Source: a phage
DNA length: 64,000 nt
Reading direction: 5' to 3' (one strand)
Sequence record: PZ445489.1
Below the pieces are notes generated by a model. It worked only from the letters and a program-made list of their open reading frames with translations, ran no database searches and was not told where the DNA came from. Each line of letters opens with the position of its first letter. Positions within the stretch are counted from its first letter, which is position 1. Made by a program: the position numbers and the translations under genes. This document shows positions 30,376 to 52,153 of this stretch, in pieces.

Positions 30376-30825
30376 ATGAAGGCAGCTTTGCTTTTAGTAG
30401 CTGCCCTTACCTTCAGCTTTAGTAGTCAGGCATCGCACGATGCAAAAGAAATAGATTGCATTGCTAAAAATATCTATTTCGAAAGTCGTGGTGAGGGCAT
30501 AAAGGGAATGACGGCGATTGCACACGTTACTAAAAACCGTGTAAACTCCGGTAAATTCCCAGATTCCTACTGTAAAGTAGTATATCAGTCTAACCAGTTC
30601 TCTTGGGTATCTAAGAGACCAAAAGTTGATAAAACTGATGAGGCTTGGCAAACCGCTAAGAATTTAGCTAGAGTGATATACTACGTTGATTTACCACAAG
30701 ATCCTACACATGGAGCACTATACTTCCATAGTGGTAAAGATAAACCTTACTGGACAAAGAAGTTTAAGAAAACAACTAAGATTAAGGGACATACGTTTTA
30801 TAAACCTGTTGTCACTAAAACTTAA
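30376..30825 (+). CDS. secreted SleB/CwlJ-family cell wall hydrolase-like protein
   Basis: Signal peptide MKAALLLVAALTFSFSSQA; NIYFESRGE...AIAHVTKNR characteristic of SleB-type hydrolase domain. Confidence 0.6.
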   Translation: MKAALLLVAALTFSFSSQASHDAKEIDCIAKNIYFESRGEGIKGMTAIAHVTKNRVNSGKFPDSYCKVVYQSNQFSWVSKRPKVDKTDEAWQTAKNLARVIYYVDLPQDPTHGALYFHSGKDKPYWTKKFKKTTKIKGHTFYKPVVTKT

Positions 30826-31515: not shown

Positions 31516-31544
31516 TTGCTAAATGCTTATAAATTCTGTATAAT
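31516..31544 (+). promoter_or_regulatory. early-type promoter driving ORF-free region
   Basis: TTGCTA-17-TATAAT. Confidence 0.55.
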
Positions 31545-32356
31545 ATATTCATAAATTAGAGAACAGCGAGCCGATTACGCTGAACTTGTCTTAATGTAAG
31601 ATGCGTCGAGCACTAAGATTCGTTGAATAGAGTCGGTAGGTTAGTTGTAAAACTAGTACACAGGGGGCGGCAATCCCGGTTAGTGGCTAGAACGTGTAAA
31701 ATGAGGCGTCTGAAACCTCTCCCCTAAACTCTTCTCTAATTTATAAATAGTGGGGTGTGGAAATCACTTATGTAGTAACACTGCCGTCCTAGTATAATTG
31801 GTATTATCAAGCCGTAACTGGTGGAAGATATAGATTCGAATCCTACGGTCGGTAAGAACTGGATAACTGATGCTTTTAACGTAAAAGCTTCCGAGGTTAG
31901 TTGCGCACTGCCTAAACCACGCGGTAGTTGGTTCCAGGCTAACCAACCAGTCTGCTGAATAGTTTTATTACGATTTAACTATGTCCAGGCTAAAGAAGAA
32001 CTTTAGAAGGTATTCTAGGATAGTGAAGTTTTTTCTCCATATCGGAGTAGTTTTTCAAGCTATCCACAAAGTGGGAAATGCTGACATGAGAGATGTCACT
32101 AATGGTGCACAATAGCACAGGTAATTCGCGATAACTCCTGTTGAGTAGCAGCAAAAGGCGGGAAGTCATGACCCCAAGCCTAACCGAGTCCTCAATATAC
32201 CGCAGGACATAACCACTAAGTCACCCTGACTTAAACTGGAAAATAATAGACGTTACTGTATTTTGTCTTGAAATACTTAATGAGTGAGACTTATGACTCT
32301 CCCGGTATCGTCTGTATTTTTAAGAGTTTTTACGAGAGTTCTTAAAAATATTTAAA

Positions 32357-32465: not shown

Positions 32466-33413
32466 ATGTTTAATACTAAAAATATGAAAGAACTGACTTC
32501 TGAGCAGAAAGTAATTCGTACTATTAAACGTTGGGGTATTGGTGCTGTAGTTGGTTTAGCAGGCTTGATTCTAGCCTTTAATTCATATACTATTGTTTCT
32601 GATGGTACGGTTAAAACCCAAACATTTCTGGGTAAAGTAGATCCTAACCCAGTATTACCAGGTTTCCATCTTGTAAACCCATTTGCATCTTTCGACACTT
32701 TTAGTACAAAAGATATTGCTGTAAAATTAGATAAACTTCAGGTTCCTAGCCAGGATAAGTTTAAATCCACTGTTGACCTGACTGTTATGTTGCAGTTTGA
32801 TGGTTCTAAGGCACCAATTAACCGTATTAACGCAGGTACTCAGGATCAAGCGTTAGACAAATATGTAACTGAAAAATTACTGTCTACTATTCGTGAGTTT
32901 GGTAAGTCTGTACCTAAAGCACAAGATTTGTTTGATGCTAAAATTCAGGCTCAATTGCAAACTGCAATTCAACAGGAAGTTGAAGAGTATGCACGCCCAT
33001 ATGGTTACACAGTTAAGCAGGTATTCCTTCAGGATATTACTTTGCCACCGGTAATCATGGAACAGGTACAGAATACCAAAGTTCGTGAAGAACAGGTTAA
33101 TGCTGCTAAAGCTGAATTAGCTCGTGTTGAACAGGAAGCACAGCAAAAAGTTAAACAAGCAGAAGCAGATCGTGAAGCTCGCAACAACCAAGCTATCGCT
33201 AATGAACGTGACGCAGATGCTAAACTGTACGCAGCTAAGAAAGAAGCTGAAGCTAACGCCGCACTGCAACGTACCATTACTCCTGAGATGATTCGTTGGA
33301 AACAACTGGAAGTCGAAATGATTCGTGCTCAGAAATATCAAGGTGGTGTACCACAGACTGTGGTAGGTACTGGCTACGATGGTCAAATGATCATGGATAT
33401 GCGTAATAAATAA
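32466..33413 (+). CDS. SPFH/band-7 (prohibitin/HflK-like) membrane protein
   Basis: N-terminal TM segment, SPFH-like core, C-terminal Ala/Glu/Gln-rich coiled coil. Confidence 0.6.
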   Translation: MFNTKNMKELTSEQKVIRTIKRWGIGAVVGLAGLILAFNSYTIVSDGTVKTQTFLGKVDPNPVLPGFHLVNPFASFDTFSTKDIAVKLDKLQVPSQDKFKSTVDLTVMLQFDGSKAPINRINAGTQDQALDKYVTEKLLSTIREFGKSVPKAQDLFDAKIQAQLQTAIQQEVEEYARPYGYTVKQVFLQDITLPPVIMEQVQNTKVREEQVNAAKAELARVEQEAQQKVKQAEADREARNNQAIANERDADAKLYAAKKEAEANAALQRTITPEMIRWKQLEVEMIRAQKYQGGVPQTVVGTGYDGQMIMDMRNK

Positions 33414-33437
33414 TATCCGCATGTAACATCTGAAGTA

Positions 33438-33476
33438 AGCCCTGCGTTCCCTGGAGAGCGCAGGGCTTTTCTTTTA
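33438..33476 (+). terminator. rho-independent terminator
   Basis: AGCCCTGCG...CGCAGGGCT hairpin + TTTTCTTTT. Confidence 0.6.
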
Positions 33477-33486
33477 TCTTAAATAC

Positions 33487-33526
33487 AGAAAAGCCCCTAA
33501 GTCTTTCGACTAGGGGCTTTATTGTT
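33487..33526. terminator. bidirectional rho-independent terminator
   Basis: AAAAGCCCCTAAGTCTTTCGACTAGGGGCTTTATTGTTT: GC stem flanked by A-run and T-run. Confidence 0.6.
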
Positions 33527-33737
33527 TGGTTCTTCAGAACCACACTCTCGGTGTACAGCAACCACCCATACGGGAGGCCAATCTTGACTGAAAATCTACT
33601 CTAGGGGGCAGGATAAGAGTAGGCTTAAAGGCAAAGGGATTGAACGCCGGTATTTGTGTAAACATTGCTGGAGAGCAACAACGTGCTACAGGCATTGGGC
33701 AGCACGAAACAGGTTTTCTGCAACACATAATTTCTCC

Positions 33738-34154
33738 TTAGGAGTTATTACCACCATTTTGAGCTTTTGCAACTTGGCTTTGGCAGAAGCTATTAAACTT
33801 ACCCATAAGTGATACAAGCTGCTTCCCATCCTCTGTCTTTGCGAAGTCTTCGAAAAGGGCTAGTACTGCCTGTCCTTCCGCAGAAACCTGCGGTTGTTGG
33901 GTTTGCTGCTGAACTTGCTGCTGCGGCATCTGTTGTTGCATTTGTTGAGGCATTTGCGACTGCCCGCTCATTTGCTGCATCATTTGCATAGGACTCACAC
34001 TTCCAGGGTTTTGCTGGAGTTGTTGTTGCATCTGTTGCGCTTCTGCTAAACGCTGTTGCAATTGTTGTAAGTAGGGGTTATCCAGACCCGGAATGGGCTG
34101 CTGGGAGCCCATACTTTGATTAAGTCCGTTATTTACAAAACCATATTTACTCAT
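33738..34154 (-). CDS. glutamine-rich low-complexity protein (138 aa)
   Basis: ORF; long Q/M/P runs. Confidence 0.5.
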   Translation of the reverse strand: MSKYGFVNNGLNQSMGSQQPIPGLDNPYLQQLQQRLAEAQQMQQQLQQNPGSVSPMQMMQQMSGQSQMPQQMQQQMPQQQVQQQTQQPQVSAEGQAVLALFEDFAKTEDGKQLVSLMGKFNSFCQSQVAKAQNGGNNS

Positions 34155-34175
34155 AATGGGCTCCTCCCCTTAATA

Positions 34176-35158
34176 TTAAGCCGGCAGTTTAGCCTGCAGA
34201 CCAGCCAGAGTCTGAGTGATAGCACCAAGACTTACAGCGATTTGATTAATTACCTGACCGTTAGCACCGTTACCCGCAGCGATTGCTTCACGTAGGCGAC
34301 ATGCATCTAACTCATCCTGAATACGAGCAGTAGTTACACCAGCGATAGCAGTCTGAAGTTCACAGCAACATTCAGCGATCTGACGTTCCAGAGAGTTCTG
34401 GTTAGCACACATCTGAGCCTGAACAGCGGCAAACTGGTTATTAGTTTGTAAAGTCTGCTGGAAAGCGATCTGTGCAGAATCAAACTTATCTTGTGCACGA
34501 GCTATCTGATTAGCTGCGAAAGATTGATCAATCTGGCGAGAAAGATCGAACTGACCCTGAATAACGTTGCGAGTTTCCTGACAGATCTGATTAGACAGAT
34601 TAGCACCTGTACCATAGATCGTAGTTAGTACAGACTGAGTATCACGGCTCTGGTTTTGGGATGTCTGGCTAAACCCATTGTTAACTGCGCTTAAAACAGC
34701 TCCAGTACCCTGGTTAGCTTCTGTACGAGTAGTGTTAATAGCTGCTAGAATACTAGCGGTATCTTGGTTCTGAAGTACTGCATCAACTGCGGTACCATCA
34801 CCAACTACACCACGTCCACCGAATCCACCGAAACCACCGAATCCGCCTGTTAATAGAGCACCGATTAGGATAGCTCCGAATAGTCCCATACCTTCACCAC
34901 CGAAAGCACCTGCGTTTGCTGGGTAACCACCCAGTAGGCCAGGGAAGCCACTAGTAAATACGTTTACTGGTTCTTGCATTTTATGTTTTCCATATTTATG
35001 ACAATGTTCATCGTCATCTTCTTCATCATCGTGTTCACGATGTTTTTCTTCGTAGGCTCTGACCTTCTCCCACTTTTTCTTATCTGATTCCTCGTGACGG
35101 TGCAGTTCTGCTGCAACGCTAGCGACGGTCTCAGGACTCTTAGCTACTTCTTCTGTCA
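34176..35158 (-). CDS. glycine-zipper membrane protein with His/acidic N-terminus and Q/N/A-rich C-terminal region
   Basis: AGGAGGTG RBS then ATG at 35158-35156; GLFGAILIGALLTGGFGGFGGFGG segment. Confidence 0.5.
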
Positions 35159-35365
35159 TTTTTGACACCTCCTAGTATATAGAAAATGTGTGTCTCTTTG
35201 ATCACTCATCCATAACATATACTTTACACTACCCCAGCGAAAATGTCAAGGGGTCTTTAAAAATTGCCCCTGAATTTTTAGTGGGGTCACAAATTTTGGT
35301 CCTCACCACTTATCTGCTATCCTTAAGTGCCCTATGATTTTCCTCTAAAAAGTTAAAAAATTTGA

Positions 35366-35394
35366 TTGCTTGAATGCTAAATTCTCTGTATAAT
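35366..35394 (+). promoter_or_regulatory. early-type promoter
   Basis: AAAAATTTGATTGCTT-17-TATAAT + ATATCTATAAATTTGAAAGAGG. Confidence 0.55.
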
Positions 35395-35424
35395 ATATCT
35401 ATAAATTTGAAAGAGGAACCAAAT

Positions 35425-35943
35425 ATGAATGTTGATGAGCTAACACAGCACCTCTTATCTAGAGGATTTGATACAGATAAATATCATTGCTGGTTAAGTC
35501 CGGAAGGATGGCTAACAGTCCCGTTGTATGACTTCTCTGGGATGTTGAGGGGCTATCAAACTTATAATCCTTCTGCTCCAAAAGGTCATGGTAAGTGCCC
35601 CTTTGAAGCTAAATACTTTACTTATTCTACTACCCAGTGTGTATGGGGACTAGAAACTCTCAATGGAGATGAAAAAGTAGTATTGATTGCTGAATCTGTA
35701 TTTAAGGCAGTTGCGTTACATAATGCTGGTTATCCAGCCCTAGCAATGTTGGGTTCTTCTCCAGGAAAAGCGTTATTAAAGCAACTGAAATTACTACCTT
35801 TTAAATTGGTAGCTGTCGGAGATAATGATCCTGCGGGTGAAAAATTTGCTAGAAAATTAAACGGCTTTGTTTCTCCCGTAGATGTGGATGAGATGTCTAC
35901 CGAAAACTTGAAAAATTTTCTTGCTATGAAGCTAAATTTCTAA
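35425..35943 (+). CDS. standalone Toprim-domain protein
   Basis: VVLIAESVFKAV (Toprim Glu) and LVAVGDNDPAGEKFA (DxD) motifs; ATG 35425 with GAAAGAGGAA RBS. Confidence 0.55.
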   Translation: MNVDELTQHLLSRGFDTDKYHCWLSPEGWLTVPLYDFSGMLRGYQTYNPSAPKGHGKCPFEAKYFTYSTTQCVWGLETLNGDEKVVLIAESVFKAVALHNAGYPALAMLGSSPGKALLKQLKLLPFKLVAVGDNDPAGEKFARKLNGFVSPVDVDEMSTENLKNFLAMKLNF

Positions 35944-48177: not shown

Positions 48178-48876
48178 ATGAGGATTATTTCTAAGTTCGC
48201 CGATGTGTATGATTTGCAGAACAGTTTGTTCGACCCCGATCGTGTTTGGGAGCGTAAAACTGAAGAGCTACTGGTTAAGGTAACTGATGATGCAGAAAAG
48301 AACATTGTGCATACTCGCCAAGTATTTCGGGATGGTTCACTATCTTTCCGTGGCGACTTCGAATACTTTGTAAACCCACTGTTTGTTGCAGGTGAAGTTT
48401 ACTGGTTACACGAGCTGTACTGCTGGCATCCAGCATTTAGCTTCAAAACGTTTAATCTCGACACTATGTTTGATAAAATGGAAGAGATGGGATTACATGC
48501 TCGCTCTTACTTAATGGATAAGAGTCGTGGAGATGTTCGTGAAACAATGCGTGATCTGCTCGCTGAAGCAAAACCTAAAGCAGAACGTATCTTATCCGAA
48601 CTGCGTGTACCAATTGCATATGTGAAAGGTATTAAAAAGAACGATAACGATGATGTTCGTAACTTCGTAATTCAGACTAACATTCGTTTCCATCAGTCCG
48701 GTATTCCGTGGCAGGAAATTGAAAGTAACTTATACCGTTTACACCAAGTTCTCGAACAGTATATCTTCGGTGTACTAGGAACTGGTGAGCCTGATATGAT
48801 TAAAGTATCAGATAAAGACAGGTTAGCAGCGCATGGATTTGATACAAAAACTTCTTTCAGGAATATGGCACGGTAA
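48178..48876 (+). CDS. hypothetical protein (232 aa)
   Basis: ORF with promoter + RBS. Confidence 0.5.
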   Translation: MRIISKFADVYDLQNSLFDPDRVWERKTEELLVKVTDDAEKNIVHTRQVFRDGSLSFRGDFEYFVNPLFVAGEVYWLHELYCWHPAFSFKTFNLDTMFDKMEEMGLHARSYLMDKSRGDVRETMRDLLAEAKPKAERILSELRVPIAYVKGIKKNDNDDVRNFVIQTNIRFHQSGIPWQEIESNLYRLHQVLEQYIFGVLGTGEPDMIKVSDKDRLAAHGFDTKTSFRNMAR

Positions 48877-49282
48877 GTGGTGTATCCTGGGAGCAGGTCT
48901 AGCGATAGGCATCGGGTTCGGTGCTTATCACTTAGTAGATAAAGTGGAGACTTTAGCGGGTGATCTTGCGGTAGCTACTAAAAAGATCTCTTCTCTAGAA
49001 ACTTCCTTGAATAATGTAAAAGTTGAGAGTGAACGTCGTGAGACACGCATGAATCAATATTTTACACTGAATAATGTATCTCAAGCAGATCTAGACAAAA
49101 AGATTAAGCAGCTAGATAAAGCTCTTAGTCGCCAAGATGTTATCGCTGCAAAGCCTGGATTGGTAACATTAATTGCTAAAAAGCAGAATAAAGAGTTCGA
49201 GGAAAGATTAGCGTGTTTAACTGGAAACTTGGAGTACTGCTCGCAGCCACAATCACAATCACAGGCTGTGCAGAAGAAATAA
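48833..49282 (+). CDS. hypothetical membrane-anchored coiled-coil protein
   Basis: ORF; N-terminal hydrophobic segment. Confidence 0.45.
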   Translation: MDLIQKLLSGIWHGKWCILGAGLAIGIGFGAYHLVDKVETLAGDLAVATKKISSLETSLNNVKVESERRETRMNQYFTLNNVSQADLDKKIKQLDKALSRQDVIAAKPGLVTLIAKKQNKEFEERLACLTGNLEYCSQPQSQSQAVQKK

Positions 49283-49566
49283 AACCAGAGCCATCTCATG
49301 AGTTAAAGCAAGCTCATGTAGACTGGCCTAAAGGACTTCAACCTTGTAGCTTTGACTTTAAGTTTGAAAAGAAATTAGCTACAAATGGAGAAGATGGCGT
49401 AGTAGTTGTTGTACCGTATAAAGATTGGAATGCAAAAGCAAAATGTGAGGAAGCAGTTTACTCTTACATTTCACGACTGACTGGTATGGTTTGCTTCTAT
49501 CGCCAAGATTTACAAGAAAAACGTTGCTTAGTTTACTATCCACCAATTAACAATAGGAAAGATTAA
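49213..49566 (+). CDS. putative lipoprotein
   Basis: N-terminal LLAATITITGC lipobox-like signal; GTG start per track. Confidence 0.45.
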   Translation: MFNWKLGVLLAATITITGCAEEIKPEPSHELKQAHVDWPKGLQPCSFDFKFEKKLATNGEDGVVVVVPYKDWNAKAKCEEAVYSYISRLTGMVCFYRQDLQEKRCLVYYPPINNRKD

Positions 49567-50318
49567 TGTCAGTATTAGTCGGTTTACATGGTGAAGCTGG
49601 TTCGGGAAAAGATACCGTTGCAAAATTAATTATCGATTGGTGTAATGACACGTATCCAACGTGTTTATCCCGTCGTTATAGTTTTGCTAAGCCCGTTTAT
49701 GAACTTGCATCCGTAATCCTCGGTGTAACTCCAGAGTTTTTAGGAGAGCGCAGGGGAAAAGAGATTGACCAATGGTTTACGGTCACACAATCTCAATTGG
49801 AGCGAGCCAGAGATGTGTGGTTTAAGTACGGTATCGATAAGTTTGAAGACTTCTCGTACGTTTGGCCTATTTTTGAGGAAAAATATCTTAATCCTCAACA
49901 ACTTATCTCAGAGAATAAAGAAGACGGACTTTATAGTTTATTTAGTTCTCCGAGAAAAATGTTACAGCTCATAGGGACAGAGCTAGGAAGGCAGCTGGTG
50001 CATGAACGCATTTGGCTCATAATTCTGGAGCAATCCATCGCTAAAGACGACCCAGACGTCGCCGTAATAACAGATGTTAGATTCCCCAATGAAGGAGAGT
50101 TACTCAGAGAAACAAACCATTTAGATATGGATTCTTTGATAGTAAATGTAGTACCCGCTGAGCAGAAGTTCACTATTAAATCAGATCATCCATCTGAAAG
50201 TGGTATTCCTGCAAAATATATTACTCACGAATTAGTTAATAAATTCGATGGTATCAATAACCTTAAACTAGAAGTTTATAACTTCTGTGACTTAGAGCTA
50301 GAACCACTAGTTGGATAA
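49566..50318 (+). CDS. dnk: P-loop nucleotide kinase, probably deoxynucleoside monophosphate kinase
   Basis: N-terminal LVGLHGEAGSGKDT P-loop typical of phage dNMP kinases. Confidence 0.55.
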   Translation: MSVLVGLHGEAGSGKDTVAKLIIDWCNDTYPTCLSRRYSFAKPVYELASVILGVTPEFLGERRGKEIDQWFTVTQSQLERARDVWFKYGIDKFEDFSYVWPIFEEKYLNPQQLISENKEDGLYSLFSSPRKMLQLIGTELGRQLVHERIWLIILEQSIAKDDPDVAVITDVRFPNEGELLRETNHLDMDSLIVNVVPAEQKFTIKSDHPSESGIPAKYITHELVNKFDGINNLKLEVYNFCDLELEPLVG

Positions 50319-50330
50319 TCAAGGATCGCT

Positions 50331-50930
50331 ATGACTAATAAAAAAGAAGAAAAGACTAACCTGTTTCACTCCATTCGCCAATCTAATGAGTATACCTTTT
50401 TCTTTGATGAAGAATTAGGCCCGCCGGATGAATACCGTGATTTATCAATGGTACTTATGCAAGCAAATGAGGACGACGAAATTAATCTGATGATTAATGG
50501 CCCGGGTGGTTATGTTGATACTGCTGCACAGTTATCTAACTTAATTGCTAATTGCCGTGGAACAGTTATAGGGCATCTGATTGGTCCTAGTGCTTCTGCT
50601 TACTGCACAATTTTCCTATCTTGCCATGGATGGGTAGTACATCCACATGCTACGCTAATGGGACACACGTTCTCTGGCGGGTTCTGTGAGAAAGGTCAAG
50701 AAATCAAGAAAGCCTATGAATCTTACAACAAGTTTGTAGAAGATATGATGCTAGATGTCTACTATCCGTTCTTCTCAATAGATGAAATCGACGAGATGGT
50801 AAAAGACAACAAAAATATCTATCTAGATAGCAAGGAAATCCGTAAGCGTATTGAAATCTTGGCAAAATATCGATCTGAGCAATATAATAAAGCCCAGTTA
50901 CCTCAATCAGAGGAGCATAACGAAGAGTAA
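50331..50930 (+). CDS. ClpP-like serine peptidase (S14 family)
   Basis: LMINGPGGYV (ClpP INSPGG-like), GPSASAY (Ser nucleophile region), downstream His. Confidence 0.55.
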   Translation: MTNKKEEKTNLFHSIRQSNEYTFFFDEELGPPDEYRDLSMVLMQANEDDEINLMINGPGGYVDTAAQLSNLIANCRGTVIGHLIGPSASAYCTIFLSCHGWVVHPHATLMGHTFSGGFCEKGQEIKKAYESYNKFVEDMMLDVYYPFFSIDEIDEMVKDNKNIYLDSKEIRKRIEILAKYRSEQYNKAQLPQSEEHNEE

Positions 50931-50940
50931 GTAATTTTAA

Positions 50941-50971
50941 GCCAGGGTTTAACGACCCTGGCTTTTCTTTT
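50941..50971 (+). terminator. rho-independent terminator
   Basis: GCCAGGGTTTAACGACCCTGGC + TTTTCTTTT. Confidence 0.6.
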
Positions 50972-51086
50972 ATCTAAAATTCTTCTTGACAACGACAAAA
51001 TTTTATGCTCCAGAAGTGATCTTTAAAAACACATTGTAATTTTCCTCCAAAATTAGTATAATGGTATTGGTTAGAGGAGGTTACAA

Positions 51087-51743
51087 TTGGAAAAGTTCTT
51101 ACAATTATTAACGGTACTGCTCCAAGAAGCGAAAGATCCAGCATCGCTTCTTAAACGTCTGCTAACTATCTTAGTTGCTGTCATTATTTTCTTATTTGTT
51201 AGTAATACTAGCGAGGTGATGTCATTCTTAAAGACTTTCTCCACGTCTGCGGTTCTACAGGATGTTCAAACTCAAAGGATAGATAACTTTCCTAATGTAG
51301 CTAGAGAAAAGAGCATGGTACTCTTTTCTCAAACGGGTGCGGATGCTGTTTTTGTCGTCAAGTATAAACCCGATGCCATTAATGATTATTCTAACATTAT
51401 TGCATGGGAAAGCAATGCGCAATTAGATAGGGCTGACTTGGCCGATAAAGCGGTAAATAAAACGTCTGAGCTATATAGACGTCACTTGGAAGGCTTTAAC
51501 TACGCATCGGATTTAAGTGTAAAAGTAAATAAATACATGGGGTTAAATATACCTGCGTTTAAGAACGTTACTTTTAATTACATATACACTTGTCCGTATT
51601 TCAATCTAAACAATATCTATGCTGGATATATTGGTATTGCTTGGAAAGATAACCCTGTAGATGCAGCCGATTCTGAGAAATTTAAGGAATATTTAACAAA
51701 GCTCTGTTCACCACAACAGAGATCTTTAGGTAGATCAATATGA
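51087..51743 (+). CDS. putative holin / membrane protein immediately upstream of endolysin
   Basis: TTG start 8 nt after GAGGAGG RBS; N-terminal TM segment; position before endolysin. Confidence 0.45.
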   Translation: MEKFLQLLTVLLQEAKDPASLLKRLLTILVAVIIFLFVSNTSEVMSFLKTFSTSAVLQDVQTQRIDNFPNVAREKSMVLFSQTGADAVFVVKYKPDAINDYSNIIAWESNAQLDRADLADKAVNKTSELYRRHLEGFNYASDLSVKVNKYMGLNIPAFKNVTFNYIYTCPYFNLNNIYAGYIGIAWKDNPVDAADSEKFKEYLTKLCSPQQRSLGRSI

Positions 51744-52153
51744 GTTTTAAATTTGGTAAAAATAGCGAAAAACAATTAGCTACCGTCAAGCCAGAGCTAC
51801 AAAAAGTAGCTCGTAGAGCTTTAGAATTATCTCCATATGATTTTACGATCGTACAGGGTATTCGTACAGTAGCACAAAGTGCCCAGAATATTGCTAATGG
51901 TACTTCATTTTTAAAAGATCCTAGTAAAAGTAAGCATATTACTGGGGATGCTCTTGATTTTGCTCCATACATTAATGGCAAAATTGATTGGAATGATTTA
52001 GAAGCATTTTGGGCAGTTAAGAAGGCTTTTGAACAAGCTGGTAAAGAGCTAGGCATTAAACTTCGTTTTGGTGCTGATTGGAATGCTTCGGGAGACTATC
52101 ACGATGAAATAAAACGTGGTACCTATGATGGCGGTCATGTCGAACTAGTTTAA
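51740..52153 (+). CDS. lys: endolysin, L-alanyl-D-glutamate peptidase (M15 family)
   Basis: H..GDALDF...DWNASGD..H..GGHVEL zinc-peptidase motifs; 137 aa. Confidence 0.7.
   Translation: MSFKFGKNSEKQLATVKPELQKVARRALELSPYDFTIVQGIRTVAQSAQNIANGTSFLKDPSKSKHITGDALDFAPYINGKIDWNDLEAFWAVKKAFEQAGKELGIKLRFGADWNASGDYHDEIKRGTYDGGHVELV

What the first reader, a model, noticed from the sequence alone, without database searches (positions are those of the whole stretch)
33487..35350. Reverse-oriented two-gene island with its own host-like promoter and a bidirectional terminator
Within a long run of plus-strand early genes, two minus-strand genes (34176-35158 and 33738-34154) are driven by a TTGACA-17-TAAAGT promoter (~35230-35260, minus strand), unlike the phage early promoter family, and end at a bidirectional terminator (33487-33526). 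The first product has a His/acidic N-terminus, a glycine-zipper membrane segment and a long Q/N/A/T-rich region; the second is extremely Gln-rich. About 200 nt of 3' UTR follows. The composition suggests membrane-active or aggregation-prone proteins, perhaps superinfection exclusion, host membrane remodelling or condensate formation.
Basis: partly seen in the sequence, partly recalled or inferred. Interest (0 to 1): 0.6.

Follow-up and report, generated by a model that had tools for sequence, protein, structure and literature searches.

The report
Accessory three-gene cysteine-motif cassette in T5-like phage
The reverse-oriented island is real and already annotated in phage T5 (promoter P12, genes T5.077-079, bidirectional terminator), but it has three genes rather than two, it also occurs in unrelated phages, its function is unknown, and its largest protein belongs to a large unstudied family marked by an invariant triple cysteine that is also found in crAss-like phages and giant viruses.

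Summary
The window is a T5-like phage, 99.9% identical to Escherichia phage SP15. The island is the orthologue of the T5/BF23 "P12" unit, which GenBank annotates with promoter P12, ORFs of 326, 138 and 64 aa, and an "efficient bidirectional rho-independent terminator".

- Gene 1 runs 34176-35159, not to 35158.
- The "200 nt 3' UTR" is a third conserved gene (33534-33728, 64 aa, four Cys-Cys pairs).

All three genes are intact in 8 diverged relatives and under purifying selection (dN/dS 0.15, 0.12, 0.26). The cassette is accessory. About 223 phage records carry it, against 674 that carry the neighbouring Band-7 gene, and it is cleanly absent from IME178.

The same A-B-C trio occurs in a lambdoid contig (between Q and the lysis genes, on the opposite strand) and in Pseudomonas phage RSP.

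Protein A shares a ~90-residue core around "QIAECCCEL" with a broad family that has no Pfam or NCBIfam model (hhalign 99%). Members occur in crAss-like phages and in giant-virus contigs.

Function is unknown. My best guess is a moron-like unit encoding a membrane-anchored, cysteine-linked complex with a conditional, envelope-level role. It is not the phage's spanin; canonical spanins lie at 48.8-49.6 kb.

The parts
35221..35249 (-). Promoter P12: -35 TTGACA (35249-35244), 17-nt spacer, -10 TAAAGT (35226-35221), followed by an ATATG discriminator
   Evidence: scan. (annotated as promoter P12 in BF23 and T5). (near-invariant in 6 T5-likes; the core AAAGACCCCTTGACATTTT...TGTAAAGTATA is kept even in L080, whose A protein is only ~42% identical).
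35160..35300 (-). Conserved upstream region plus ~55-nt 5' UTR, with CCCC/GGGG inverted repeats (ACCCC-N15-GGGGT spans the -35 hexamer and spacer) and the AGGAGG ribosome-binding site of gene A
   Evidence: This stretch is much better conserved than the coding sequence downstream (dS 0.35-0.7). An operator role is inference only.
34176..35159 (-). Gene A (T5.077 orthologue, 327 aa): conserved N-terminal helix, variable acidic/His-rich insert, MQEPVNVFT motif, Gly-rich hydrophobic span 90-115 bounded by E89 and R116, all-helical C-terminal domain with invariant C264-C265-C266 in QIAECCCEL
   Evidence: phrog_8119, function unknown; dN/dS 0.15; AF2 pLDDT 86-94 for residues 180-270, long helices.
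33738..34154 (-). Gene B (T5.078 orthologue, 138 aa): N-terminal PYLQQLQQRLAEAQ helix, variable Gln/Met/Pro linker, conserved C-terminal module EGQAVLALFEDFAKTEDGKQLVSLMGKFNSFCQS with one invariant Cys
   Evidence: phrog_7894; dN/dS 0.12.
33534..33728 (-). Gene C (T5.079 orthologue, 64 aa): starts MCC, has four Cys-Cys pairs and 10 Pro, with no signal peptide or lipobox.
   Evidence: 221 of 223 records full length; dN/dS 0.26; variable sites 4/5/14 by codon position.
33487..33526 (.). Intrinsic terminator of the cassette. It is usable in both directions, with an A-tract on one side and a T-tract on the other.
   Evidence: -23.2 and -22.3 kcal/mol, z about -6. (annotated as a bidirectional terminator).
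33437..33468 (+). Second hairpin: terminator of the converging Band-7/SPFH gene. It contains AGCGCAGG (33457-33464), which matches the T5 major-nick consensus. It is the only part of this interval kept in phages that lack the cassette.
   Evidence: H65-H70 match only this hairpin; nick annotated in T5; consensus from PMC3517423.

Best explanation
The island is an accessory, self-contained transcription unit of the kind called a moron. It is the orthologue of T5 P12-T5.077-T5.078-T5.079 and sits antiparallel in the early/tRNA region.

**How it is probably expressed.** Host sigma-70 RNA polymerase starts at P12. One mRNA of about 1.7 kb carries three genes, each with a strong Shine-Dalgarno sequence, and stops at the bidirectional hairpin.

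**The three products**
- A: a single-pass membrane protein with a long helical domain carrying an invariant triple cysteine.
- B: a protein with a helix, a flexible Gln/Pro linker and a small conserved Cys-containing module.
- C: a 64-aa peptide with Cys-Cys pairs.

Because the three are inherited together in unrelated phages, and their cysteines appear and disappear together, they most likely assemble into one membrane-anchored complex. The complex would be held by disulfide bonds or by metal-thiolate bridges.

The complex is dispensable for growth. I think it most likely gives a conditional advantage at the cell envelope, such as excluding competing phages or altering the infected cell's membrane.

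**What is shown and what is inferred**
- Shown: the anatomy, conservation, accessory status, mobility between phage lineages, and family membership.
- Inferred: complex formation (about 0.6) and the exclusion/envelope function (about 0.3).
For: - **Identity.** 99.9% to SP15 and 98.6% or less to other T5-likes. T5 and BF23 annotate promoter P12, three ORFs with ribosome-binding sites, and a bidirectional terminator at the equivalent positions.
- **Real genes.** All three ORFs are intact in 8 diverged phages. Median dN/dS is 0.15, 0.12 and 0.26, and variable sites concentrate at third codon positions.
- **Accessory.** About 223 records encode A or C, against 674 that carry the adjacent Band-7 gene. 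In IME178 the two flanking genes abut, with only one hairpin between them.
- **Mobile as a trio.**
  - A-B-C is present in distant T5-like contigs L079 and L080, where A is about 42-46% identical.
  - It lies in lambdoid contig L081, between the Q antiterminator and holin-lysozyme-Rz, on the opposite strand. It has its own TTGACT promoter-like site there, followed by a hairpin and T-run.
  - It is also in Pseudomonas phage RSP, divergent from the terminase genes.
- **Cysteine co-variation.** In L102 the A-like protein lacks CCC, the B-like protein lacks its Cys, and there is no C gene.
- **Membrane anchor.** Residues 90-115 form a 26-residue uncharged span (19-residue Kyte-Doolittle hydropathy window, mean 1.7). 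It is conserved, and most family members with such a segment show the same flanking pattern: an acidic residue before it and Arg after it.
- **Expression signals.** The promoter and 5' UTR are almost invariant across relatives.
Against: - No experiment or database hit speaks to function. Pfam, NCBIfam, PADLOC, PDB sequence search and Foldseek are all negative.
- B and C have no signal peptide. A's topology is ambiguous. So it is not even clear on which side of the membrane the cysteines sit.
- The cysteine co-variation rests on a single variant locus.
- No copy was found in the representative bacterial genomes or in complete E. coli genomes. The prophage-type "moron expressed from a lysogen" picture therefore rests on one metagenomic lambdoid contig.
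- Many family members are soluble, or sit in crAss head-gene neighbourhoods or in giant viruses. That does not point to exclusion.
Confidence: 0.4

Rival explanations
1. Lysis accessory. A acts like an i-spanin or antiholin (membrane anchor, long helical domain, cysteines). C acts like a proline- and cysteine-rich o-spanin analogue. Together they modulate envelope disruption or lysis timing.
For: - The architecture of A resembles that described for Rz, and Rz1 is small and Pro-rich (descriptions in PMC6139136).
- In L081 the cassette abuts holin-lysozyme-Rz.
- crAss members lie about 1.2 kb from holin and peptidase genes.
- L006 has amidase and holin genes about 5 kb downstream.
- crAss homologues were annotated "spike protein/glycoprotein" by others.
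Against: - The window has a canonical overlapping i-spanin/o-spanin pair (48833-49282 and 49213-49566), a T-type holin and EndoT5 elsewhere.
- C has no signal peptide or lipobox. The lipobox scan found only 49213.
- In L081 the unit is antiparallel to the lysis genes, which include their own Rz.
- Half of T5-likes lack the cassette.
- In T5 the cassette is 14 kb from the lysis genes.
Confidence: 0.12
2. Cytoplasmic metal- or redox-handling complex. A is oriented N-out/C-in, so the CCC domain, B and C all face the reducing cytoplasm. There the clustered thiols, and the His-rich insert of A, would bind metal (Zn, Cu or Fe-S) or sense redox state to reprogramme the host.
For: - The acidic-residue/Arg pattern flanking the hydrophobic span is shared by most family members that have such a span. 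It predicts C-in by the positive-inside rule.
- B and C have no export signal.
- About two thirds of family representatives are soluble with no signal peptide.
- A carries His runs of up to HHYHHHHHEH in some variants.
- An EncFtn-like gene (weak hit) lies near a family member in L006.
Against: - The His-rich insert is variable and absent in distant A proteins.
- In the N-out/C-in orientation the insert would lie on the periplasmic side, away from the thiols.
- Three adjacent Cys in one helix cannot chelate one ion without oligomerisation.
- The ~90-residue charged N-domain of A would have to cross the membrane without a signal peptide.
- L102's A protein has a strongly basic N-domain, which predicts N-in.
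Confidence: 0.15
3. Virion-associated or post-lysis structural protein. The helical, filament-like A protein, cross-linked through cysteines once outside the cell, would decorate particles or form a matrix. This would be the family's role in crAss-like phages and giant viruses.
For: - crAss members sit between terS and the major capsid gene and were annotated "outer capsid protein/viral fiber".
- Giant-virus members are long, repeat-rich and occur as tandem paralogues.
- 27 of 137 family proteins have Cys/Gly/Tyr-rich tails.
- The only structural hits, none of them significant, are intermediate filaments.
Against: - The crAss001 structural atlas lists capsid, fibre, portal, tail and cargo proteins. 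Its two head fibres are small proteins (gp21, residues modelled up to 97; gp29, up to 118) with folds unlike this family (PMC10172136).
- From my own knowledge, T5 virion proteomics (16 proteins, as cited in PMC8624392) does not include T5.077. I could not check the list here.
- A strongly hydrophobic anchor is odd for a decoration protein.
- The cassette lies in the early region and is dispensable.
Confidence: 0.12
4. The ORFs are chance reading frames and the promoter and terminator are consensus noise.
For: Promoter-like matches are no more frequent than in shuffled sequence. Low-complexity composition can create long ORFs.
Against: - Purifying selection acts on all three frames.
- The ORFs are intact in more than 220 genomes.
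- Orthologous trios exist at about 40% identity in other phage lineages.
- A matches an independent family profile with hhalign probability 99.15%.
Confidence: 0.01

Closest known systems
Phage T5 / BF23 'P12' unit: genes T5.077, T5.078, T5.079 (BF23 ORFs of 326, 138 and 64 aa) with a bidirectional terminator
   Same: Orthologous. It has the same position between the Band-7 gene (T5.080) and the Toprim primase-like gene (T5.076), the same orientation, the same three ORFs, and the same promoter and terminator. DNA identity is about 90% to BF23, and the T5 copy of protein C is about 92% identical.
   Different: Nothing essential. The His/acidic insert of A varies in length. All three products are "hypothetical protein" in those records, so the match gives a name but no function.
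Lambdoid morons (for example lambda bor and lom): autonomous units with their own promoter and terminator embedded in another operon
   Same: It has its own sigma-70-type promoter and intrinsic terminator. It runs opposite to its neighbours, shows presence/absence polymorphism, and occurs in unrelated phage backgrounds, including a lambdoid Q-to-lysis interval.
   Different: Here the host genome is a virulent phage, so there is no lysogen to benefit. No sequence relation to any known moron product was found. Expression independent of the phage programme is not shown.
Two-component spanins (Rz/Rz1)
   Same: An anchored helical protein with conserved cysteines, next to a small Pro- and Cys-rich partner.
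   Different: C has no lipobox. A has a ~90-residue N-domain before its anchor. A third protein, B, is present. Canonical spanins are encoded elsewhere in the same genome. See the membership test.
PHROG families 8119, 9288 and 16490 (all 'unknown function'); crAss-like 'spike protein/glycoprotein' or 'outer capsid protein/viral fiber' genes
   Same: They share the ~90-residue core FAA.Q...C.NQNAL..Q[IL]AECCCE[LI]K...RLRD. Many also share the Gly-rich hydrophobic segment.
   Different: Those relatives lack B and C partners. Many are soluble. About 20% carry a fused Cys-rich tail that T5-type A lacks. Their names come from automated remote matches, not from experiments.

Membership tests
T5 P12 unit (T5.077-079 orthologues) | Synteny: between the Band-7/SPFH gene and the Toprim primase-like gene, antiparallel to both | tested here: met
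T5 P12 unit (T5.077-079 orthologues) | Three consecutive ORFs of about 326, 138 and 64 aa, each with its own ribosome-binding site, that are sequence orthologues | tested here: met
T5 P12 unit (T5.077-079 orthologues) | Promoter P12 upstream and a bidirectional rho-independent terminator downstream | tested here: met
   Sequence and conservation. Activity itself was not testable here.
ECCCE-motif helical family (PHROGs 8119/9288/16490; no Pfam or NCBIfam model) | Invariant CCC within Q[IL]AECCCE[LI], followed by an RLR[DE] motif | tested here: met
   (about 80 of 103 representatives)
ECCCE-motif helical family (PHROGs 8119/9288/16490; no Pfam or NCBIfam model) | Profile-level homology beyond the motif | tested here: met
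   (HMM E-values down to 3e-12 outside T5-likes). (hhalign probability 99.15%, E 3.7e-19, 91 columns, against an alignment with no T5-type sequences).
Moron (autonomous accessory unit) | Own promoter and own terminator | tested here: met
   annotation
Moron (autonomous accessory unit) | Present or absent among otherwise collinear relatives, and found in unrelated phage backbones | tested here: met
   against 13 and 87
Moron (autonomous accessory unit) | Transcribed independently of the surrounding operon or temporal programme | not testable with these tools
   Needs transcript mapping
Two-component spanin (Rz/Rz1) | o-spanin: signal peptide with a lipobox | tested here: not met
   C starts MCCRKP with no hydrophobic leader. 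The lipobox scan finds only 49213-49566.
Two-component spanin (Rz/Rz1) | i-spanin: N-terminal type II anchor followed directly by a periplasmic coiled coil | tested here: inconclusive
   The anchor is at residues 90-115, not at the N-terminus. Topology is ambiguous. No clear heptad periodicity was found.
Two-component spanin (Rz/Rz1) | The sole outer-membrane-disruption function of the phage, usually in or near the lysis cassette | tested here: not met
   Canonical spanins, holin and endolysin lie at 48.8-52.2 kb. The cassette is absent from many relatives.
Known superinfection-exclusion or anti-phage defence proteins | Sequence membership in a described family | tested here: not met
   PADLOC, Pfam, NCBIfam and PHROG give no functional hit
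Known superinfection-exclusion or anti-phage defence proteins | Reduces plating of other phages when expressed | not testable with these tools
   An experiment is needed
Glycine-zipper membrane segment | GxxxGxxxG (or a relaxed small-xxx-G-xxx-small) register | tested here: inconclusive
   Residues 90-115 are GMGLFGAILIGALLTGGFGGFGGFGG. Every fourth residue is small (G92, A96, G100, T104, G108, G112), but there is no strict GxxxGxxxG (read).

The most novel reading that the evidence does not exclude
The ECCCE domain defines a previously unrecognised, virus-wide protein class. It would span tailed phages of several families, crAss-like phages and giant viruses, and would build cysteine-stapled or metal-bridged helical assemblies on or near membranes. 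The T5-type A-B-C trio would then be a tractable three-part version of this class in E. coli, in which the Cys-rich tail has become a separate peptide (C) and an adaptor (B) has been added.
Probability: 0.3. Interest if true: 0.75.

Novelty: already known. Interest (0 to 1): 0.5.

Why it matters
The island itself is not a discovery. T5 and BF23 curators mapped its promoter, three ORFs and terminator two decades ago. What remains open is what it does.

This work adds three points that make the question more attractive:
- The three genes form a conserved trio that moves between unrelated phages, so they probably work together.
- The largest protein belongs to a big, unannotated family with an invariant triple cysteine. 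The family reaches from coliphages to crAss-like phages and giant viruses.
- A model phage of E. coli carries it as a dispensable cassette, so deletion, expression and topology experiments are straightforward.

If the family turns out to have one shared function, many "hypothetical" genes in gut and giant viruses would be explained at once.

Tried and rejected
- **Family libraries.** Pfam, NCBIfam and PADLOC gave no family above threshold for A, B or C. PHROGs gave only unknown-function families.
- **RNA families.** Rfam found nothing in the island, only sub-threshold noise.
- **Solved structures.** Profile searches against PDB sequences found nothing.
- **Structure prediction.**
  - AF2 with 27 sequences was poor (pLDDT 43.6).
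  - AF2 with 77 sequences reached 68.6, with confident long helices.
  - Foldseek against PDB and BFVD gave no hit with E below 0.1.
- **Coiled coil.** The heptad/hendecad periodicity test showed no clear signal, so I do not claim a canonical coiled coil.
- **Spanin hypothesis.** Rejected after finding canonical spanins, holin and EndoT5 elsewhere in the window.
- **Proximity to "endolysin" at 30.4 kb.** Rejected. That gene is a secreted SleB-like hydrolase, and the neighbouring "tail fiber protein" is not a holin.
- **Prophage copies.** None found in 185,579 representative genomes with B or A patterns, and none in complete E. coli genomes.
- **B in metagenomes.** The metagenome scan for B returned only T5-likes.
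- **Cys-rich neighbours.** Small Cys-rich ORFs are not enriched next to wider-family genes (4.9% against 6.1% background). The C partner is therefore specific to the T5-type module.
- **Literature.**
  - No paper mentions T5.077-079 or the PHROG ids.
  - No T5-like transcriptome or gene-essentiality data for these genes were found.
  - The supplements of the phiR2-01 proteome paper are not held.
- **crAss001 virion atlas.** It lists no homologue.
Full report
**What the window is.** The 2.2 kb around the finding is 99.9% identical to Escherichia phage SP15 (Tequintavirus) and 97-98.6% identical to many other T5-like phages. The flanking genes are on the + strand:
- a Band-7/SPFH membrane protein at 32466-33413;
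- a Toprim "primase-like" protein starting at 35374 or 35425.

All 23 tRNA genes in the window are also on the + strand.

**Checking the observation.**

*ORFs.* The two minus-strand ORFs exist. Gene 2 is 33738-34154.

*Promoter.* TTGACA-17-TAAAGT lies at 35249-35221 on the minus strand. Such matches are not enriched in this region (7 found, 13.5 expected by chance). The support comes from conservation instead:
- About 140 nt upstream of the ATG are nearly invariant in six T5-likes whose coding sequences have diverged to dS 0.35-0.7.
- The core AAAGACCCCTTGACATTTT...TGTAAAGTATA persists in a contig whose A protein is only about 42% identical.

*Terminators.* The hairpin at 33487-33526 folds at -23.2 kcal/mol on the minus strand and -22.3 on the plus strand (z about -6). 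It has a U-run after it in both directions. A second hairpin, 33437-33468, terminates the converging Band-7 gene.

ORF 33534-33728 follows gene 2 by 9 nt, has an AAGGAG ribosome-binding site, and stops 8 nt before the hairpin.

**It is already annotated.** The hand-curated records of T5 (NC_005859) and BF23 (AJ604530) show, at the equivalent place, "promoter P12", three ORFs and their terminator. The ORFs are T5.077, T5.078 and T5.079, called "ORF 326aa, 138aa, 64aa" in BF23, where each has a ribosome-binding site annotated. The terminator is described as an [quoted passage not shown]. All three products are "hypothetical protein". I found no paper that mentions them.

**Are these real genes?** Yes. 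I extracted the three ORFs from the window, T5, BF23, Sepoy, TrudiGerster, STG2, EH3 and STWB21, and all are intact.

| Gene | Median dN/dS (Nei-Gojobori, pairs with dS > 0.1) | Variable sites by codon position 1/2/3 |
|---|---|---|
| A | 0.15 | 68/44/197 |
| B | 0.12 | 29/27/76 |
| C | 0.26 | 4/5/14 |

(All.) The 64-aa ORF is full-length in 221 of 223 phage records that contain it.

**It is accessory.** A or C is encoded in about 223 phage records. The neighbouring Band-7 gene is found in 674. In IME178 the primase-like and Band-7 genes are 96 nt apart, and only the 33437-33468-type hairpin remains between them. The result is the pattern of a dispensable cassette: absent as a block, never decayed when present.

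**The trio travels.** Distant homologues of A (36-46% identity) led to other contexts.

| Locus | Background | What is there |
|---|---|---|
| L079, L080 | Divergent T5-like contigs | A, a shorter B (106-107 aa), and a 63-69-aa ORF starting MCC |
| L081 | Lambdoid contig | The trio lies between NinG/antiterminator Q and holin-lysozyme-Rz, on the opposite strand. It has its own TTGACT promoter-like site, followed by a hairpin and T-run. |
| L082 | Pseudomonas phage RSP (56% G+C) | A (321 aa), B (143 aa) and C (60 aa), divergent from the terminase genes |

Features conserved across these contexts:
- In B: the helix PYLQQLQQRL and the C-terminal module ..F.EFA.TEDGK.LV...GKF...CQS.
- In C: the start MCC and the paired cysteines.

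One variant, L102, has an A-like protein without CCC, a B-like protein without its cysteine, and no C gene. This suggests the cysteines of the three proteins work together, but it is a single case. Scans of representative bacterial genomes, complete E. coli genomes and metagenomes added no further backgrounds.

**Protein A belongs to a large unannotated family.** An exhaustive profile search with 27 T5-type sequences found 103 cluster representatives. About 80 of them share ...[KQ]N..L..Q[LI]AECCCE[LI]K.... A profile-profile comparison against 26 members, none of them T5-type, gave probability 99.15% and E 3.7e-19 over 91 columns, covering A residues 203-300.

There is no Pfam or NCBIfam model. 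The matching PHROGs (8119, 9288, 16490) are of unknown function.

Members occur in several kinds of virus:
- phage contigs of about 40-54 kb;
- crAss-like phages, between terS and the major capsid gene, where automated annotation calls them "spike protein/glycoprotein" or "outer capsid protein/viral fiber";
- many giant-virus MAG contigs of up to 472 kb.

One giant-virus contig, L013, carries three tandem paralogues next to an intein-containing PolB, a collagen-repeat gene and a UDG.

Other family features:
- Giant-virus members are 170-730 aa with 11-residue repeats.
- About a quarter of the scored representatives (22 of 81) have an N-terminal Gly-rich hydrophobic segment like A's.
- About 20% (27 of 137) end in a Cys/Gly/Tyr-rich tail (PxPAY..NP[YF]..GCGC). 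None of the 26 T5-type A proteins do.
- P0130's tail, VPAFAVPNPF...CGC..CC, resembles C's IPAFNPFAF with CC pairs. C may therefore be a detached version of that tail. This is a hypothesis only.
- B is restricted to the T5-type module. Cys-rich small ORFs are not enriched beside other family members.

**Structure.**
- AF2 with a 77-sequence alignment gives pLDDT 68.6 overall and 86-94 for residues 180-270.
- It predicts helices at 12-45, 133-168, 174-274 and 277-323, and a disordered stretch at 49-126.
- Foldseek finds nothing significant. The best PDB hit is vimentin at E of about 9.
- I found no clear heptad signal. I therefore describe the domain as long-helical, not as a proven coiled coil.

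**Topology is unresolved.**
- The uncharged span 90-115 is bounded by E89 and R116.
- The same pattern (acidic residue, then the span, then Arg) holds for most family members with such a segment.
- By the positive-inside rule this favours N-out/C-in.
- That orientation would place the CCC domain in the cytoplasm with B and C, which have no signal peptides. It also fits the many soluble relatives.
- Against this, T5-type A has a ~90-residue charged N-domain that would have to be translocated, and L102's N-domain is strongly basic.
- Whether the cysteines form disulfides (periplasm, or after lysis) or bind metal (cytoplasm) cannot be decided from sequence.

**What it is not.** It is not the phage's spanin. 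The window has an overlapping i-spanin/o-spanin pair (48833-49282 and 49213-49566), a T-type holin (51087-51743) and EndoT5 (51740-52153). C has no lipobox. It matches no known defence or exclusion family. The crAss001 virion atlas lists no homologue.

**Promoter class.** The window's early promoters form a tight family: AAAAATTCAT-TTGCTA-N17-TATAAT-ATATT..ATAAATTGATGAG. P12 differs from it at -35, at -10 and upstream. It keeps ATATG where early promoters have ATATT, the element said to distinguish T5 early from late promoters (PMC7472727). It also keeps GATGAG downstream. The temporal class of P12 therefore remains open.

**Verdict.**
- The finding is a real, correctly located feature, but it is already annotated and was mis-parsed as two genes.
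- Its function is unknown.
- The most defensible mechanism is a moron-like unit encoding a membrane-anchored, cysteine-linked three-protein complex with a conditional, envelope-level role.
- My confidence: anatomy above 0.9, complex formation about 0.6, exclusion-type function about 0.3.
- The added value is the conserved trio and the virus-wide ECCCE family, which make a dispensable cassette of a model coliphage a good entry point.

Noticed in passing
window 33457-33464 (+), inside hairpin 33437-33468: AGCGCAGG matches the T5 major-nick consensus R/GCGCRGG. T5 RefSeq marks a "major DNA single-chain interruption" at the equivalent position. A nick site therefore sits in the stem of the terminator next to the cassette, and this hairpin is the only part retained in phages that lack the cassette.
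   Followed up: partly
window 35374-35943 (+): The 189-aa ORF, as annotated in SP15, is probably over-extended. T5 and BF23 start the Toprim "primase-like" gene 17 codons later (35425). They place early promoter P15a (TTGCTT-17-TATAAT-ATATC, about 35350-35424) over the extra codons. P12 and P15a are thus divergent promoters about 117 nt apart.
   Followed up: partly
window ~35160-35300 and 33534-33728: The two ends of the cassette are far better conserved than genes A and B between them. The promoter and 5' UTR are near-identical across phages. Gene C has 12% variable sites, against 31-32% in A and B. This might reflect recombination arms for allele exchange, or an extra constraint such as the ACCCC-N15-GGGGT inverted repeat over the -35 hexamer and spacer.
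   Followed up: partly
window ~31545-32356 (+): This stretch corresponds to "RNAX, stable RNA with unknown functions" in the T5 and BF23 records. It lies between an early promoter (31516-31544) and tRNA-Arg (32357). Rfam gives only a sub-threshold tRNA-like hit at 31783-31854.
   Followed up: no
window 30376-30825 (+); 48833-52153 (+): The gene that RefSeq calls "endolysin" near the finding is a signal-peptide-bearing SleB-like hydrolase. The actual lysis genes (i-spanin, overlapping o-spanin lipoprotein, T-type holin, EndoT5) are at 48.8-52.2 kb.
   Followed up: yes
GenBank records of Sepoy, STWB21, ESCO30/40, HMD-P3/P4, JLBYU40 (for example L005 2658-3074): The B protein is annotated "cAMP-dependent protein kinase catalytic subunit". 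It has no kinase domain. The name is presumably a poly-Gln artefact that has propagated between records.
   Followed up: partly
L013 3777-4517, 5533-6321, 6451-7302 (also L012, L014-L016): Giant-virus contigs (G+C 0.28, up to 472 kb, next to an intein-containing PolB) carry two or three ECCCE paralogues side by side on one strand (adjacent in L012 and L015; in L013 one other ORF lies between the first and the second). Some end in CPPPCPPPCPPPCP tails. Other members have 11-residue repeats such as AVERNGxxTRx.
   Followed up: partly
L102 3767-5111: A variant module in an 88-kb viral contig has an A-like protein without the CCC motif and with a strongly basic N-domain, a B-like protein without its cysteine, and no C gene.
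   Followed up: partly
window 32466-33413 (+): The Band-7/SPFH membrane protein, labelled "lipoprotein" in RefSeq, is conserved in 674 phage records across Salmonella, Escherichia, Klebsiella, Aeromonas and other hosts. That is far wider than the cassette. Its role in these phages is also unknown.
   Followed up: no
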